From Deltaproteobacteria bacterium (GTDB lineage: Bacteria; Desulfobacterota; Deferrisomatia; Deferrisomatales; BM512): DNA of 64,000 nt. Below the pieces are notes generated by a model. The model made no database searches. It worked only from the letters and a program-made list of their open reading frames with translations, and was not told the DNA's origin. This document shows, in pieces, positions 8,204 through 40,999 of this stretch. A program made the position numbers and the translations under genes. Every line of letters starts with the position of its first letter. Positions within the stretch are counted from its first letter, which is position 1. The stretch covers positions 95 to 64,094 of the forward strand of contig PKTT01000031.1 in NCBI GenBank assembly GCA_002869015.1, written 5' to 3'.

Positions 8204-8320
8204 TTAAAGGCTCCATATCTTTCGTGGTAAATAAAAGGATTCCTTGACCACCCGGAGGCATTCGGGGTTATCCTCTTCTTCAATATTATTTTACCTTGAA
8301 AAGGGGTGCGTGAGTCAAAG

Positions 8321-9415
8321 ATGAGCAGTTCCCGCCTCAAAAAATTTATCCTCGAGAAAATAGCTGAAGAGGGCCCGATAACATTCGAGCGTTACATAAA
8401 CTATTCTCTCTATCACCATGAATTTGGTTACTATTCTTCCGGCAAAGTGTCAATCGGTAGGGAGCGCGCCGACTTTATCACCTCTCCCCATGTATCAAAG
8501 ATTTTTTCCCGCTGCCTCTCAAACTTTATCATCCTTGCCGATAAGTCACTTGGCTCTCCCGAGAAGCTCTGGGTTGTTGAGGGTGGCCCCGGTGAGGGAG
8601 AGCTGGCCAGCACCATCCTGGACACTTTAATGATACGCGCGCCGGAAACGTACGGTCGTATCAGCTACGTGACTGAGGAGGCCAGCCCCGCCCTTACGGG
8701 GAGGCAGGAAAAGCTTCTCGCGCCGCACGCTAAGAGGCTTTGCAAGGAAGCGCCGGATAACTACGAGGGGGTATATCTCTCAAACGAGCTTGTCGATGCG
8801 TTCCCCTTCAACATATTTATAAGCAGGGAGGGGGTGGTGTCGGAGCTCTACGTGGGGGAGGAGGGAGGAGCGCTTGTAGAAATGGAGGGCGCTGTCAAGT
8901 CACCACTTCCTGAGGGCTTCCTTCACGGCAGCGGGAACTTCCGCTTCGAGCACTCTCCGGAGGCTGCGAATTGGCTAAAGCGCACAGCGAAAAAGCTGGG
9001 GCGAGGTTATCTCCTGACAATCGACTACGGGGATGAGAGAGCGCGTCTCTTCGGACCCCATAAAGAGGGGGGCACCGCCCGTGGCTACTCAAAGCACAGG
9101 CATATTGAGAGCATATTGGAAGCGCCCGGTGAGTGCGACCTTACCCGCTCAGTGGACTTCACGGAGCTGATTGACCTTGGCGATGAGTTGGGGCTCTCCT
9201 CCGAGCCGCTCTTTAATCAGCGCGAGCTCCTCTACAGCCTCGGGATGGTCGAAGAGGTTGCGCTAATAGAGGAGGAGTGCGCGGATGAGGTGGAGGCGCT
9301 CGCGAGAAGGCACGAACTCGCCCCGCTCCTCATGGGCGGCGTTGGAATGGGGGAGACCTTTAAGGGGCTCCTACAGGTAAAGGAAGCCCCCGCCGGTCTA
9401 TTAAAGAGGCTCTAA
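8321..9415 (+). CDS. MidA/NDUFAF7-family (DUF185) SAM-dependent methyltransferase
   Basis: ITFERYINYSLYHHEFGYYSSG...DFITSPHVSKIF is typical of this family. I preferred the ATG at 8321 to the GTG at 8306. Confidence 0.8.
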   Translation: MSSSRLKKFILEKIAEEGPITFERYINYSLYHHEFGYYSSGKVSIGRERADFITSPHVSKIFSRCLSNFIILADKSLGSPEKLWVVEGGPGEGELASTILDTLMIRAPETYGRISYVTEEASPALTGRQEKLLAPHAKRLCKEAPDNYEGVYLSNELVDAFPFNIFISREGVVSELYVGEEGGALVEMEGAVKSPLPEGFLHGSGNFRFEHSPEAANWLKRTAKKLGRGYLLTIDYGDERARLFGPHKEGGTARGYSKHRHIESILEAPGECDLTRSVDFTELIDLGDELGLSSEPLFNQRELLYSLGMVEEVALIEEECADEVEALARRHELAPLLMGGVGMGETFKGLLQVKEAPAGLLKRL

Positions 9416-23043: not shown

Positions 23044-23160
23044 ATGGCGACTGAGACTGGACAGGAATATCTTTGTGAAGTCTGCGGAAATAAGGTGAAG
23101 GTTATTGAGAGCGGCGGCGGAGAGCTTACCTGCTGCGGACAGGCGATGACGCTACAGTAA
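23044..23160 (+). CDS. Desulforedoxin (38 aa, Fe(Cys)4 protein)
   Basis: It is hidden inside a longer 101-aa track ORF. A GAGGAG Shine-Dalgarno precedes ATG and MATETGQEYLCEVCGNKVKVIESGGGELTCCGQAMTLQ. This matches D. gigas desulforedoxin almost position for position ([27 protein letters not shown]). Confidence 0.8.
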   Translation: MATETGQEYLCEVCGNKVKVIESGGGELTCCGQAMTLQ

Positions 23161-37879: not shown

Positions 37880-38710
37880 TCAGGCAGGGAATATTTCGCC
37901 ATCGAAGGGGGGAATAAGGTCGAGGTCACGCTGACGGCGCAATAGCTCCCTAACCGCAGCCTCCCCCTCCTCGCCCAGCTCCCTTGAGAACTCATTTACG
38001 TATAGCCCGATATGGCTCTTTACGACCTCTTCGGAGAGCTCCTGAGAGTGCTCGCGCACATACTCCAGCACCTCGCCGGGGTTGGCGAGGGCATACTCAT
38101 AGCTCTCCCTCAACCACCGCTCCACCTTGCGCGGGTCTGGGCCGCCGGGGAGGTCTCTCTTAAGCATGATGCAGCCGAGAGGGATCGGCGCGCCGGTGCT
38201 TCGCTCCCACCACTGCCCCAGGTCCTCCACGGCGACGAGGCCGCGCTCGCCGTAGGTGAAGCGCCCCTCGTGGATGATAACACCCGACCTAACCTCCCCC
38301 GACTTAACCGCTTCCATCACATCGCTAAAGATCATCGGCACACCCTCGACGCCGCCTGTGCGGAGGGTTAGGAGCAGATAGGCGGTGGTGTTGACGCCGG
38401 GGTGCGCCACCGGATACTCCGCGTACTCCTCAGGAGCGCCGGGGCTGGCGGCTATCCAGAGAGGGCCGCAGCCGCGCCCGAGCGCGCCGCCGGAGCGTAG
38501 GCACCAGTAGTCATGAAGGACTTTACCCAAAAGACCGTAGCTCGCCTTGGAGAGCTCCAGCTCCCCATTAAGAGCCATAAGGTTCAGCGCCTCCACATCA
38601 TCCAGAACGGGCTCAAACTGATACCCCTCCGTATCAATGAGGCCCTTCACCAGCGCGTAAAACTGGATAGTGTCATTGGGGCATGGGGAATAGCCGAAGC
38701 GGAGCTTCAT
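37880..38710 (-). CDS. mqnD: 1,4-dihydroxy-6-naphthoate synthase (futalosine pathway MqnD)
   Basis: GYSPCPNDT..FYAL, DVEALN and LRSGGALGRGCGPL are MqnD-type motifs, as opposed to MqnA-type. Confidence 0.8.
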   Translation of the reverse strand: MKLRFGYSPCPNDTIQFYALVKGLIDTEGYQFEPVLDDVEALNLMALNGELELSKASYGLLGKVLHDYWCLRSGGALGRGCGPLWIAASPGAPEEYAEYPVAHPGVNTTAYLLLTLRTGGVEGVPMIFSDVMEAVKSGEVRSGVIIHEGRFTYGERGLVAVEDLGQWWERSTGAPIPLGCIMLKRDLPGGPDPRKVERWLRESYEYALANPGEVLEYVREHSQELSEEVVKSHIGLYVNEFSRELGEEGEAAVRELLRRQRDLDLIPPFDGEIFPA

Positions 38711-39426
38711 TTCGACTCCTCAAGGTACTCAATGAAACGTGTCGCAACCCACCCGGCGGCTTGGGCCGCTTCATCGATCTTCCACGAGGAAAGGTCGCGG
38801 GGGCCGACAAGGTTGGAGATGCCCTTGACCTCGGCGAATTCAGCCCCGGAGATGAGGGCGGCGTGCGCCACCGCCGCGCCCTCCATATTCTCAACAATCG
38901 CCCCGTGCGCACGGTAAAGAGCCTCAGCTCGCTCAGCGGTTGACGTTACGGTGGAGGTAGTTAGAAATGGCCCCTTGAGGGTCGGGTAGCGCTCCTCCGA
39001 GAGGGAGGCGATAATATCGGCGTGTGGTGTAGAGACGGGAAATTCGCCCTGCACCGCTTCGCCCGAGGGCGAGATAAAGCGGGGAACTACGAGAGGCCCC
39101 TTGACTTCACCGCGGGAGCTCTCAACTCCCCAATCCTCATCAAGCTCAGAGGTAGCGACGGCGACCCCGCCGGGAGCAAGGCCAGCGCTTGGGAACGCGC
39201 CGCCAACGCCTACGGATAGGATTAGCGCGGGAGCATAATCGTTAAGATAGCTGCCTAGGGCGAAGGCCGCGCTGACCTCGCCTACGCCTGTAACAAGAAA
39301 TTCGAGATTCAGCCTTCCCCTCGCCTTAAGGTCGCGCACCTTTGTTGAAGCGCTCCACTCAAGCTCCAGCTCCGTCGCCCCCACGATAAGGAGGTCGGTC
39401 CTAATCCGTCTCGGGAGGGCGGTCAA
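38707..39426 (-). CDS. mqnB: Futalosine hydrolase (MqnB), PNP/UDP phosphorylase superfamily
   Basis: A nucleoside phosphorylase fold (LLIVGATELE, GVGEVSAA, ENMEGAAVA) with a 4-nt overlap onto mqnD. The apparent start is a TTG overlapping the upstream TGA. Confidence 0.7.
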   Translation of the reverse strand: MTALPRRIRTDLLIVGATELELEWSASTKVRDLKARGRLNLEFLVTGVGEVSAAFALGSYLNDYAPALILSVGVGGAFPSAGLAPGGVAVATSELDEDWGVESSRGEVKGPLVVPRFISPSGEAVQGEFPVSTPHADIIASLSEERYPTLKGPFLTTSTVTSTAERAEALYRAHGAIVENMEGAAVAHAALISGAEFAEVKGISNLVGPRDLSSWKIDEAAQAAGWVATRFIEYLEESK

Positions 39427-39665
39427 GCTATCCGTCTCATCCTGTCGTTGCAGCAGTAAGGGTCAAGATGCTCAGCGCTGCCTGACACCACGGCTACCTC
39501 TGCGCCGCAGTGGGTGCAGTGGTAGACCTCGTGTACCCTTGGTTTGGGGAGCATCGGGGTGTTGCAGCAGTGCGGGTCAAGCTCCTCCGACGCAGCGCCG
39601 ACGACCATCACCTCCGCCCCGCAGACCGGGCACTTGAAGACCCTGCCCATTGTGACCCTCTCCAT
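39423..39665 (-). CDS. Tandem (two-module) desulforedoxin-like Cys4 protein
   Basis: From the ATG at 39665 the protein reads MERVTMGRVFKCPVCGAEVMVVGAASEELDPHCCNTPM...EVYHCTHCGAEVAVVSGSAEHLDPYCCNDRM. This gives two C-x2-C-G...L-x-P-x-C-C modules. The stop overlaps the mqnB start. Confidence 0.6.
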   Translation of the reverse strand: MERVTMGRVFKCPVCGAEVMVVGAASEELDPHCCNTPMLPKPRVHEVYHCTHCGAEVAVVSGSAEHLDPYCCNDRMRRIA

Positions 39666-39853
39666 CAGCTTTTCCCCTCTACGCTCTCCATCAACTTGCC
39701 GTGGCAACGCGGCTCAAGGGTGCCGGTACCGCCGCGCACAACTATGATTACGTTGCCGCACTCCGAGCATTTATAGGTCTTGCCGACATTTATGGACCAG
39801 GCGGATTGCCACTCGTCTGCGTTCCATTCAGGTCCTGAGAAATTCGAGTCCAT
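39665..39853 (-). CDS. Single desulforedoxin-like module protein (C-x2-C...C-H variant)
   Basis: TYKCSECGNVIIVVRGGTGTLEPRCHGKLM. The stop, TGA, overlaps the ATG of the next gene (TGATG). Confidence 0.55.
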   Translation of the reverse strand: MDSNFSGPEWNADEWQSAWSINVGKTYKCSECGNVIIVVRGGTGTLEPRCHGKLMESVEGKS

Positions 39854-39976
39854 TGTCTACCTCCCTAAAAGATATTGGTCACTACCCGAAAGATACCATG
39901 CGACCTCCCCGTTTTCCATATCCAAAGGGGCGTTGACTCTGGAAAATATCTTTTAAAAAAGGTATCTTACCCCACT

Positions 39977-40999
39977 ATGACTATATCCATCCGTGAACGC
40001 CTTGAGGGCGAAGAGGCGAAGGAGCTGCACCCCCTGGCGGCGCGTTCGGTTAACACGCGCGGCAGGGAGCGTGGCGAAGAGGAGTGCTCGATCCGGCTGG
40101 CCTACCAGGTGGACCGCGACAGGATCCTCCACTCCAAGTCTTTCAGGAGGCTCAGCCAAAAGACCCAGGTCTTCCTCGCCCCCGCCGGAGACCACTACCG
40201 TAACCGCCTCACCCACACCCTTGAAGTAAGCCAGATAGCGAGAACGATCTCACGCGCCTTAGGCCTAAACGAGTACCTGACTGAGGCGATATCCCTCGGC
40301 CACGACCTGGGGCACACACCCTTCGGCCATGCGGGAGAAGCGGTCCTAAACAGACTCTCCCCAAGCGGTTTCCACCACGCAAAGCAGTCGCTAAGGGTCG
40401 TCGAGCGCCTTGAGCGCGGCGGCGCGGGCCTTAACCTTACCGCCGAGGTGAGGGAGGGAATCGCGGGGCATTCAAAGGGCAAGGGTAAAATCCTCAGCCC
40501 CCTGAAGACCCTGGAAGCGCAGGTAGTCCGTGTAGCGGACCTCATCGCCTACCTGAACCACGATCTGGATGATGCGCTGCGCGCGGGGATAATTACCCCC
40601 GGCGAGGTTCCCGCTCCTGTCAGAGCGCACCTGGGGGAGACACATGGTTCGCGGATATCGGCGATCGTGGAGAATACGATCTCCGAGACGATTTCGGCGG
40701 AGCTGGAGTCAATTGTCATATCGGCCGATATGAATGATATTCTGGTCGAGTTCAGGGAGTTCCTGTACCATCGGGTTTACGACAACCCGGAAGTTCACGG
40801 CGACTTCATAAAAGCCACCAAGTTACTGGAAGAGCTCTACCGTCATTATAAGGAAAACCCCGAGGAGTTGCCTGAGGATGACAGGAGCGATGCCCCTGTG
40901 GATGTACAGGTCTCAGACTTCATCGCGGGGATGACGGATAGGTATGCGCTGTCGCTATACAATACGATTTTCATGCCAAGGCCCTGGAAAGTGTTGTAG
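39977..40999 (+). CDS. dgt: dGTP triphosphohydrolase-like HD-domain protein
   Basis: Contains FQVDRDRILHSKSFRRL, RLTHTLEV and GHDLGHTPFGH. I preferred the ATG at 39977 (MTISIRERL). Confidence 0.85.
   Translation: MTISIRERLEGEEAKELHPLAARSVNTRGRERGEEECSIRLAYQVDRDRILHSKSFRRLSQKTQVFLAPAGDHYRNRLTHTLEVSQIARTISRALGLNEYLTEAISLGHDLGHTPFGHAGEAVLNRLSPSGFHHAKQSLRVVERLERGGAGLNLTAEVREGIAGHSKGKGKILSPLKTLEAQVVRVADLIAYLNHDLDDALRAGIITPGEVPAPVRAHLGETHGSRISAIVENTISETISAELESIVISADMNDILVEFREFLYHRVYDNPEVHGDFIKATKLLEELYRHYKENPEELPEDDRSDAPVDVQVSDFIAGMTDRYALSLYNTIFMPRPWKVL

What the first reader, a model, noticed from the sequence alone, without database searches (positions are those of the whole stretch)
37880..39853. 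Three desulforedoxin-like Cys4 modules translationally coupled to futalosine-pathway genes mqnB-mqnD
- **Operon.** Four minus-strand genes are chained by overlapping stop/start codons (TGATG at 39663..39667, TTGA at 39423..39426, and a 4-nt overlap at 38707..38710).
- **Gene content.** They are a single Dx-like module (CSEC...RCHG), a tandem two-module Dx-like protein (CPVC...HCC and CTHC...YCC), MqnB and MqnD.
- **Variant spacing.** The modules share Y/F-x-C-x2-C-G-x-x-V-x-V-V...L-x-P-x-C-[CH]. That is the desulforedoxin knuckle pattern with one extra residue before the CC pair.
- **Novelty.** I am not aware of a link between rubredoxin- or desulforedoxin-type metal centres and menaquinone biosynthesis.
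- **Hypothesis.** The futalosine route depends on radical-SAM enzymes (MqnE, MqnC) that need a low-potential reductant. Dedicated small electron carriers, or metal or redox sensors, are therefore a plausible but untested role.
Basis: partly seen in the sequence, partly recalled or inferred. Interest (0 to 1): 0.6.

Follow-up and report, generated by a model that had tools for sequence, protein, structure and literature searches.

The report
Conserved desulforedoxin-like gene pair beside mqnB-mqnD
Two small desulforedoxin-like metal-binding proteins really do sit in one operon with two menaquinone-synthesis genes, but the same pair occurs in bacteria that lack that pathway, so it is probably a stress-related redox module and not a dedicated part of vitamin K2 synthesis.

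Summary
Four minus-strand genes are chained by overlapping stop and start codons:
- Dx1, 62 aa, with Cys3-His ligands.
- Dx2, 80 aa, with two Cys4 modules.
- MqnB.
- MqnD.

Both small proteins pass the Pfam threshold for PF06397. Their models fit desulforedoxin 1DXG best, and both are under purifying selection.

The futalosine reading does not hold.
- Dx1 and Dx2 form a fixed two-gene unit found in at least four phyla.
- They precede mqnB only in Deferrisomatales (12 of 12 genomes that carry the pair).
- Eight other Deferrisomatales genomes have mqnB without the pair. Two of them keep the window's exact LysE-mqnD-mqnB|dGTPase layout.
- Four near-complete Thermodesulfobacteriota genomes carry the pair but have no MqnB, MqnA or MqnD.

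Elsewhere the neighbours are redox or stress genes:
- a rubredoxin-less rubrerythrin-like protein, a ferritin and a geranylgeranyl-reductase homologue;
- thioredoxin reductase;
- a flavodiiron protein, RIC and the hybrid-cluster protein behind an Rrf2 regulator;
- HSP20 and Lon.

My best reading is an uncharacterised rubredoxin-type electron-carrier pair for oxidative or nitrosative stress enzymes. In this order it is co-transcribed with mqnBD. No metal or function has been measured.

The parts
39665..39853 (-). Dx1: a 62-aa protein with a Trp-rich N-terminal motif (PEW..DEW..AW.I.VG) followed by one desulforedoxin-fold module. The ligands are C29, C32, C50 and H51, a Cys3-His variant.
   Evidence: - PF06397 at 27.6 bits, cut-off 23.
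- Invariant residues across homologues.
- AF2 mean pLDDT 70; best PDB hit 1DXG with TMt 0.68 and 44% identity.
- 19 synonymous against 4 non-synonymous codon differences versus G001.
39423..39665 (-). Dx2: an 80-aa protein with two tandem desulforedoxin-fold modules (C12, C15, C33, C34 and C50, C53, C71, C72). Its ATG overlaps the Dx1 stop codon.
   Evidence: - PF06397 at 50.8 bits with two stretches.
- Eight invariant Cys.
- AF2 mean pLDDT 83.5; best PDB hit 1DXG with TMt 0.87 and rmsd 1.4 A.
38707..39426 (-). mqnB, futalosine hydrolase. Its TTG start overlaps the Dx2 stop codon (TTGA).
   Evidence: TIGR03664 at 162.5 bits, above the 124.7 cut-off; PF01048.
37880..38710 (-). mqnD, 1,4-dihydroxy-6-naphthoate synthase. 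Its start overlaps the mqnB stop by 4 nt (ATGA).
   Evidence: PF02621 at 218.8 bits.
39854..39976 (.). Probable divergent promoter region between Dx1 and the dGTPase-like gene.
   Evidence: - The family match of the dGTPase-like protein starts at residue 37 of the longest ORF. Its true start is therefore probably near 39977.
- No sigma-70-like site was found by the simple scan.
39875..40999 (+). Divergent dGTP triphosphohydrolase-like HD gene. It is a neighbour, not part of the module.
   Evidence: - NF002327 at 478 bits.
- Conserved beside the locus only within the window's own family, with or without the Dx pair.

Best explanation
**What it is (shown)**
- Dx1 and Dx2 are an autonomous, always-adjacent two-gene module of desulforedoxin-fold metal-binding proteins.
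- Dx1 is one module with a Trp-rich N-terminal helix. Dx2 is two modules in tandem.
- The module is scattered over Thermodesulfobacteriota, Planctomycetota, Abyssubacteria and Lindowbacteria.
- The pair is not specific to the futalosine pathway.

**What it most likely does (inferred)**
- The proteins bind iron through Cys4 (here Cys3-His in Dx1).
- They act like rubredoxin, as mid-potential one-electron carriers.
- They would pass electrons from an NAD(P)H-linked flavoprotein to di-iron or flavodiiron enzymes that remove O2, H2O2 or NO.
- The two modules of Dx2 may mimic the desulforedoxin homodimer within one chain.

**The link to mqnBD**
- In the ancestor of Deferrisomatales the pair landed between the promoter and mqnB-mqnD.
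- It has since been co-transcribed and translationally coupled with them.
- The pathway does not need it. The link is co-regulation or operon hitch-hiking.
For: **Fixed unit**
- Dx2 follows Dx1 in every locus with enough downstream sequence. This holds in 51 distinct Dx1 loci and in five more read later.

**Fold and ligands**
- PF06397 passes its threshold.
- 1DXG is the best structural match for both models.
- The Cys ligands are invariant.

**Independence from Mqn**
- G038, G147, G178 and G318 carry the pair but have no MqnB and no PF02621 protein.
- Eight Deferrisomatales genomes have MqnB without the pair. Two of them have the identical locus minus the pair.

**Redox and stress neighbours elsewhere**
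- About 15 loci read ferritin, mini-rubredoxin or cytochrome-b5-like protein, Methyltransf_28, Dx1, Dx2, small zinc ribbon, rubrerythrin-like protein, geranylgeranyl-reductase homologue. The rubrerythrin-like protein has no rubredoxin domain.
- Seventeen Planctomycetota-type loci. Ten show Dx1-Dx2-trxB, and eight of those continue to dut. The other seven contigs end before trxB. trxB scores 384 bits on TIGR01292 and carries CATC.
- Two loci read Rrf2 ... flavodiiron protein / RIC / Dx1-Dx2 / hybrid-cluster protein. The flavodiiron protein lacks the rubredoxin domain that is fused in E. coli NorV.
- Two loci read Dx1-Dx2-HSP20-Lon.

**Precedents**
- From established knowledge, rubredoxin reduces flavodiiron proteins and rubrerythrins.
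- Campylobacter jejuni desulforubrerythrin carries a desulforedoxin-like centre alongside its rubrerythrin centres (PMC7482061). That the desulforedoxin domain is fused to the rubrerythrin is my own knowledge.
Against: - No metal content, spectrum or expression data exist. No RNA run holds the locus.
- In this genome no redox enzyme neighbours the pair.
- Dx1 here has His in place of the fourth Cys, a pattern common in structural zinc sites.
- The trxB, HSP20 and Lon contexts fit a thiol or zinc redox switch equally well.
- The Dx1-Dx2-mqnB adjacency outlasted the flanking genes in four Deferrisomatales families. That hints at some selective value of the linkage.
- Neighbour inference rests on about 55 loci, many from the same few lineages.
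Confidence: 0.5

Rival explanations
1. The pair is a set of zinc-ribbon thiol redox switches or small adaptors. The Cys clusters would hold structural or redox-labile zinc, as in Hsp33, RsrA or Trx2. The proteins would sense or buffer oxidative stress, or escort partner proteins, and would not carry electrons.
For: - Dx1 in this order is Cys3-His.
- A genuine thioredoxin reductase follows the pair in Planctomycetota.
- HSP20 and Lon follow it in Abyssubacteria and Lindowbacteria.
- A DsbA-like neighbour occurs in L140.
- Weak zinc-ribbon family hits occur for Dx2.
Against: - The best sequence and structure matches are iron-binding desulforedoxin and the desulfoferrodoxin centre I domain.
- The adjacent C-C pair is the hallmark of the desulforedoxin iron site.
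- Neighbours such as rubredoxin-less flavodiiron and rubrerythrin-like proteins need an electron donor.
Confidence: 0.25
2. One reading: the three modules are dedicated electron donors or sensors for the futalosine pathway, for example reducing the radical-SAM enzymes MqnE and MqnC.
For: - The pair is translationally coupled to mqnB-mqnD.
- The adjacency to mqnB is kept in 12 of 12 pair-bearing Deferrisomatales genomes, although the flanks differ and a primase-like gene is inserted in one lineage.
- The Cys3-His form of Dx1 is the form found beside mqnB.
Against: - The pair is present in genomes with no MqnA, MqnB or MqnD.
- The pair is absent from eight Deferrisomatales genomes that have the pathway. 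Two of them have the identical locus.
- mqnE and mqnC lie elsewhere without Cys4 genes.
- MqnB and MqnD are not redox enzymes (established knowledge).
- Rubredoxin and desulforedoxin centres titrate near 0 mV (PMC7482061).
- One Cys3-His pair stands without mqnB.
Confidence: 0.08
3. The small ORFs are not real genes, and the Cys patterns are chance.
For: None beyond their small size.
Against: - Homologues exist in several phyla with invariant Cys.
- Synonymous changes greatly outnumber non-synonymous ones.
- Shine-Dalgarno motifs precede both genes.
Confidence: 0.01

Closest known systems
Desulforedoxin of Desulfovibrio gigas (PDB 1DXG)
   Same: - Small stand-alone protein with the same beta-hairpin knuckle fold.
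- CxxC plus an adjacent CC as ligands in both Dx2 modules.
- Best PDB match for both models.
   Different: - Two extra residues lie before the CC pair (17 against 15).
- Dx2 is a tandem fusion, where desulforedoxin is a homodimer.
- Dx1 adds a conserved Trp-rich N-terminal helix and here has Cys-His in place of Cys-Cys.
- The two always come as a gene pair.
- The NCBIfam domain model TIGR00319 scores below its cut-off.
N-terminal centre I domain of desulfoferrodoxin (2Fe superoxide reductase; PDB 1DFX, 2JI1)
   Same: Same Pfam family, PF06397, and same fold.
   Different: No superoxide reductase catalytic domain is attached or adjacent.
Desulforubrerythrin of Campylobacter jejuni
   Same: It joins a desulforedoxin-type centre to a rubrerythrin di-iron domain. 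In about 15 loci of other Thermodesulfobacteriota the pair sits beside a rubrerythrin-like protein that has no rubredoxin domain (PMC7482061).
   Different: - There it is a fusion; here the genes are separate.
- In the window's own genome no rubrerythrin gene is adjacent.
Rubredoxin as electron donor to flavodiiron proteins (ROO, FprA) and rubrerythrin
   Same: The proposed role and gene neighbourhood match: Rrf2 - flavodiiron protein - Dx1 - Dx2 - RIC - hybrid-cluster protein in two loci.
   Different: - The fold subtype differs (desulforedoxin, not rubredoxin).
- Three modules are spread over two proteins.
- The function has not been tested.

Membership tests
Desulforedoxin / desulfoferrodoxin N-terminal domain (PF06397, TIGR00319) | Profile match above the curated threshold. 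| tested here: inconclusive
   - Pfam passes: Dx1 27.6 bits and Dx2 50.8 bits against a cut-off of 23.
- NCBIfam TIGR00319 falls below its cut-off: 26.5 and 32.1 bits against 36.05.
Desulforedoxin / desulfoferrodoxin N-terminal domain (PF06397, TIGR00319) | Four Cys ligands arranged as CxxC plus an adjacent CC. | tested here: inconclusive
   - Met in both Dx2 modules, where the Cys are invariant.
- Dx1 of this genome and of all Deferrisomatales has C-H in place of C-C.
- Dx1 of other lineages has C-C.
Desulforedoxin / desulfoferrodoxin N-terminal domain (PF06397, TIGR00319) | Canonical spacing of 15 residues between the two Cys pairs. | tested here: not met
   All three modules have 17 residues. 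The genome's own canonical 38-aa desulforedoxin at 23044-23160 has 15.
Desulforedoxin / desulfoferrodoxin N-terminal domain (PF06397, TIGR00319) | Desulforedoxin fold. | tested here: met
   1DXG is the top hit for both models: TMt 0.87 with rmsd 1.4 A for Dx2, and TMt 0.68 for Dx1. Foldseek E-values are weak because the domains are small.
Desulforedoxin / desulfoferrodoxin N-terminal domain (PF06397, TIGR00319) | Binds iron in a distorted tetrahedral Fe(Cys)4 site and forms a dimer. | not testable with these tools
   Needs purified protein, metal analysis, and UV-visible and EPR spectra.
Futalosine (Mqn) pathway component | Co-occurs with mqn genes across genomes. | tested here: not met
   - Four near-complete genomes carry the pair without MqnA, MqnB or MqnD.
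- Eight Deferrisomatales genomes have MqnB without the pair.
Futalosine (Mqn) pathway component | Gene adjacency to mqn genes. | tested here: inconclusive
   - Met in 12 of 12 pair-bearing Deferrisomatales genomes.
- Not met in any of the 35 or so loci of other lineages whose neighbours could be read.
Rubredoxin-type electron carriers of oxidative or nitrosative stress systems | Encoded beside the acceptor enzyme (flavodiiron protein, rubrerythrin) or beside a reductase. | tested here: inconclusive
   - Met in other lineages.
- Not met in the window, where the neighbours are mqnB, mqnD and a dGTPase-like gene.
Rubredoxin-type electron carriers of oxidative or nitrosative stress systems | Reversible one-electron transfer to those enzymes. 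| not testable with these tools
   Needs biochemistry.

The most novel reading that the evidence does not exclude
In Deferrisomatales the Cys3-His form of Dx1, together with Dx2, has taken on a new role tied to menaquinone. It could be a redox or metal sensor that tunes mqnBD output, or a carrier that links the quinone pool to stress enzymes. The persistence of Dx1-Dx2-mqnB across four families would then reflect function and not inertia. Separately, the pair as a whole would be an undescribed three-centre desulforedoxin-type carrier used by several phyla.
Probability: 0.12. Interest if true: 0.65.

Novelty: new variant of a known kind. Interest (0 to 1): 0.4.

Why it matters
- The proposed new link between Fe(Cys)4 proteins and menaquinone synthesis is probably an operon accident confined to one order.
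- The work does expose a small, uncharacterised but well conserved family: a Trp-rich desulforedoxin-like protein always paired with a tandem desulforedoxin.
- The family spans at least four phyla. Every database name I saw for it is "hypothetical protein", a generic name such as "desulfoferrodoxin-like iron-binding protein", or a mis-assigned zinc-finger or ribosomal label.
- It repeatedly sits where rubredoxin-less flavodiiron and rubrerythrin-like enzymes would need an electron donor.
- If that role is confirmed, it would fill a gap in how some anaerobes feed electrons to their O2 and NO defences.
- Deferrisoma camini carries the pair and is cultured, so the idea can be tested.

Tried and rejected
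- **Literature.** No paper holds 'desulforedoxin' together with 'futalosine' or 'menaquinone'. 'Desulforedoxin-like' gave only two Clostridioides difficile papers, useful for redox potentials.
- **Expression.** No RNA run holds the locus. Only metagenomic DNA runs do.
- **Promoters and terminators.** The scan found nothing informative inside the operon.
- **Earlier scan notes.** None bears on this locus.
- **Fusions.** I looked for Dx1 fused to other domains among 1.84 billion representative proteins. There were none, only stand-alone proteins of 55-85 aa and a few proteins with four modules.
- **Strict His-mqnB rule.** I considered that the Cys3-His variant always goes with mqnB. One Cys3-His pair stands alone on a 10-kb contig.
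- **Ferritin / rubrerythrin-like cluster in this genome.** It is not kept together here. Only scattered, distant homologues exist on other contigs, plus a Methyltransf_28 gene at 8306-9415.
- **Gene calling.** My own greedy ORF caller was unreliable in high-GC contigs. I replaced it with seed-based tblastn and conserved-ORF comparison.
Full report
**1. Observation**

The four minus-strand ORFs are at the stated coordinates.
- Dx1 is at 39665-39853 (62 aa).
- Dx2 is at 39423-39665 from its ATG (80 aa).
- MqnB is at 38707-39426 (239 aa, TTG start).
- MqnD is at 37880-38710 (276 aa).

Reading the minus strand confirms the junctions. TGATG lies at 39667..39663, TTGA at 39426..39423 and ATGA at 38710..38707. 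GGGAGG and GAGGGG precede the Dx1 and Dx2 starts.

The family matches are as follows.

| Protein | Model | Score (bits) | Cut-off (bits) |
|---|---|---|---|
| Dx1 | PF06397 | 27.6 | 23 |
| Dx2 | PF06397, two stretches | 50.8 | 23 |
| Dx1 | TIGR00319 | 26.5 | 36.05 |
| Dx2 | TIGR00319 | 32.1 | 36.05 |
| MqnB | TIGR03664 | 162.5 | 124.7 |
| MqnD | PF02621 | 218.8 | 26 |

So Pfam passes, but the stricter NCBIfam desulforedoxin-domain model does not.

The three modules have 17 residues between CxxC and the second Cys pair. Canonical desulforedoxin has 15. This genome's own 38-aa desulforedoxin at 23044-23160 also has 15. The insertion is therefore two residues.

**2. The small genes are real**
- All eight Cys of Dx2 are invariant in homologues.
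- C29, C32 and C50 of Dx1 are invariant, as is a Trp-rich N-terminal motif with E9, W15, W19, I21, V23 and G24.
- Against the sister genome G001, Dx1 shows 19 synonymous and 4 non-synonymous codon differences. Dx2 shows 24 and 6.
- The AlphaFold model of Dx2 has mean pLDDT 83.5. Its best PDB match is desulforedoxin 1DXG, with TM 0.87 on the target and rmsd 1.4 A. Desulfoferrodoxin N-terminal domains follow.
- The Dx1 model has mean pLDDT 70. It shows a helix at residues 12-18 followed by the hairpins, and again matches 1DXG best, with 44% identity over 36 columns.

**3. Who carries the pair, and next to what**

The genome is a Deferrisomatales MAG of the phylum Thermodesulfobacteriota.

Dx1 and Dx2 are always adjacent. 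Every locus with enough downstream sequence has Dx2 right after Dx1. This holds across 51 distinct Dx1 loci. It also holds in the five loci read later (L137-L140 and the window's relatives).

Full-length Dx1 is rare. It gives 64 clusters at 90% identity. Among 1.84 billion proteins it gives about 17 representatives at 50% identity, and none is fused to another domain. Dx2 is somewhat commoner, with 295 clusters. Named sources are Planctomycetota, Brocadiia, Thermodesulfobacteriota, Deferrisoma camini, Abyssubacteria and Lindowbacteria. The names given are "hypothetical protein", "desulfoferrodoxin-like iron-binding protein", or mis-assigned zinc-finger and ribosomal labels.

I found five main neighbourhoods, plus stand-alone pairs.

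| Context | Lineage | Gene order | Loci |
|---|---|---|---|
| A | Deferrisomatales | Dx1 (Cys3-His) - Dx2 - mqnB (- mqnD) | 12 of 12 pair-bearing genomes in four families |
| B | Other Thermodesulfobacteriota | ferritin - mini-rubredoxin or cytochrome-b5-like - Methyltransf_28 - Dx1 - Dx2 - 52-63-aa CxxC..CxxC protein - rubrerythrin-like - geranylgeranyl-reductase family | about 15 |
| C | Planctomycetota type | pgsA (opposite strand) / Dx1 - Dx2 - trxB - dut | 17; ten reach trxB, eight of those reach dut, seven end earlier |
| D | Abyssubacteria, Lindowbacteria | apgM - Dx1 - Dx2 - HSP20 - Lon | 2 |
| E | Brocadiia and one unassigned contig | Rrf2 regulator, flavodiiron protein, RIC, Dx1 - Dx2, hybrid-cluster protein | 2 |
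| Stand-alone | One unassigned Cys3-His pair (L137) and one unassigned pair (L140) | Pair alone, or beside a DsbA-like gene | 2 |

Notes on the contexts:
- **A.** The flanks differ between families. They are a dGTPase-like gene, tyrS, or a WYL regulator with CRISPR-Cas genes. In G020 a gene with a primase C-terminal domain sits between Dx2 and mqnB. G009 shows a gap of the same size there, and G010 has a similar gap of about 1.3 kb. I did not read the content of either gap.
- **B.** The rubrerythrin-like protein is 176-179 aa and has no rubredoxin domain. The reductase scores 233 bits on TIGR02032.
- **C.** trxB is a genuine thioredoxin reductase. It scores 384 bits on TIGR01292 (cut-off 343) and carries the CATC motif. 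A rubrerythrin gene lies nearby in one locus.
- **E.** The flavodiiron protein lacks the rubredoxin domain that is fused in E. coli NorV.

**4. Test of the futalosine hypothesis**
- G038, G147, G178 and G318 are 99-100% complete and carry Dx1-Dx2. They have no MqnB at E <= 1e-10 and no PF02621 protein, meaning neither MqnA nor MqnD.
- Among 21 Deferrisomatales genomes, 20 have MqnB and 12 have the pair.
- Of the eight with MqnB but no pair, six are at least 95% complete.
- I fetched six of those eight mqnB loci. None has a Dx module within 5 kb.
- G002 and G005, in the window's own family, keep LysE - mqnD - mqnB | dGTPase in the same order as the window, only without the pair.
- In the window's genome, mqnE and mqnC lie together on contig C8 behind a UbiA-like gene (that label rests on my reading of its N-terminus, not on a family search). 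No Cys4 gene is near them. mqnA lies on C64.
- MqnB and MqnD are not redox enzymes (established knowledge).
- Rubredoxin centres generally titrate at -50 to +50 mV, and desulforedoxin-like centres near 0 mV or higher (PMC7482061).
- From my own knowledge, radical-SAM clusters need roughly -450 mV. The pair is therefore a poor candidate reductant.

The pathway does not need the pair, and the pair does not need the pathway.

**5. Most likely function**

The constant element is the pair itself. The variable neighbours are mostly enzymes of oxidative, nitrosative or thiol stress. Several of them are versions that lack their usual built-in rubredoxin module.

Two precedents support a carrier role.
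- Rubredoxin is the established donor to flavodiiron proteins and rubrerythrins (established knowledge).
- Campylobacter jejuni desulforubrerythrin carries a desulforedoxin-like centre alongside its rubrerythrin centres (PMC7482061). That the two domains are fused is my own knowledge.

I therefore rate a rubredoxin-like electron-carrier role as most likely, at about 0.5. The steps from fold to iron binding to electron transfer are inferred, not shown.

A zinc or thiol redox-switch role is the main rival, at about 0.25. It is favoured by the trxB, HSP20-Lon and DsbA-like contexts and by the Cys3-His site of Dx1 in this order.

The mqnBD linkage is best read as an ancestral insertion upstream of mqnB in Deferrisomatales. 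At least three later losses followed, in g2 and g3 of family f1 and in three genera of f2. Its persistence while the flanks changed leaves some room, about 0.1, for a lineage-specific functional tie.

**6. Novelty**

The modules belong to a known fold. Three things are new:
- the conserved hetero-pair architecture (a Trp-rich single module plus a tandem double module);
- the two-residue longer loop;
- the recurrent placement beside rubredoxin-less stress enzymes.

I found no literature on the pair. It is a new variant of a known kind and of moderate interest. The specific claim of a link between metal centres and menaquinone is not supported.

Noticed in passing
window 23044-23160 (+): A canonical stand-alone 38-aa desulforedoxin (MATETGQEYLCEVCGNKVKVIESGGGELTCCGQAMTLQ) with the standard 15-residue spacing. 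It is the best PF06397 hit in the genome (53.7 bits). It lies between a Tex-like gene and an ABC-F gene; those two labels are my reading of the translations, not family searches.
   Followed up: partly
window 8306-9415 (+): A Methyltransf_28 (MidA/NDUFAF7-like) gene, about 30% identical to the methyltransferase that directly precedes Dx1 in other Thermodesulfobacteriota. Here it lies 30 kb away, between genes that look like recR and EF-G.
   Followed up: partly
L035 6475-6648, L037 6467-6625, L039 7018-7209; also L107 3106-4212 and L108 499-1752: A conserved 52-63-aa protein with the motif CxxCGK...IC.xCE..[LI]RGEAL always follows Dx2 in the ferritin / rubrerythrin-like cluster. A similar motif opens 370-417-aa proteins near the pair in Planctomycetota-type contigs. 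No family match above threshold.
   Followed up: no
L076 9506-10681 (G020); same-sized gap in G009 (L075): In L076 a 391-aa gene with a primase C-terminal domain (PriCT_1) is inserted between Dx2 and mqnB. This suggests a mobile-element insertion that did not break up the cluster. In G009 only the 1.2-kb gap was seen, not the gene.
   Followed up: no
G000 contig C8, 8328-11376 (-): mqnC and mqnE sit together behind a UbiA-like prenyltransferase gene and are followed by a PilZ-like gene. This is the radical-SAM half of the futalosine pathway, in a separate operon. The UbiA and PilZ labels are my reading of the translations, not family searches.
   Followed up: partly
P0217, P0231, P0241 (195-196 aa): Proteins with four desulforedoxin-like modules in tandem exist in the representative library.
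   Followed up: no
L129 5488-6333: In a 5.97-Mb Planctomycetota-type assembly, the trxB after the pair matches the thioredoxin reductase model only over residues 13-143 and then diverges. This is a likely frameshift or assembly error.
   Followed up: no
window 39875-40999 (+): The longest ORF of the dGTPase-like gene starts 21 nt from Dx1, but the family match begins at residue 37. The real start is probably near 39977, which leaves a divergent intergenic region of about 120 nt.
   Followed up: no
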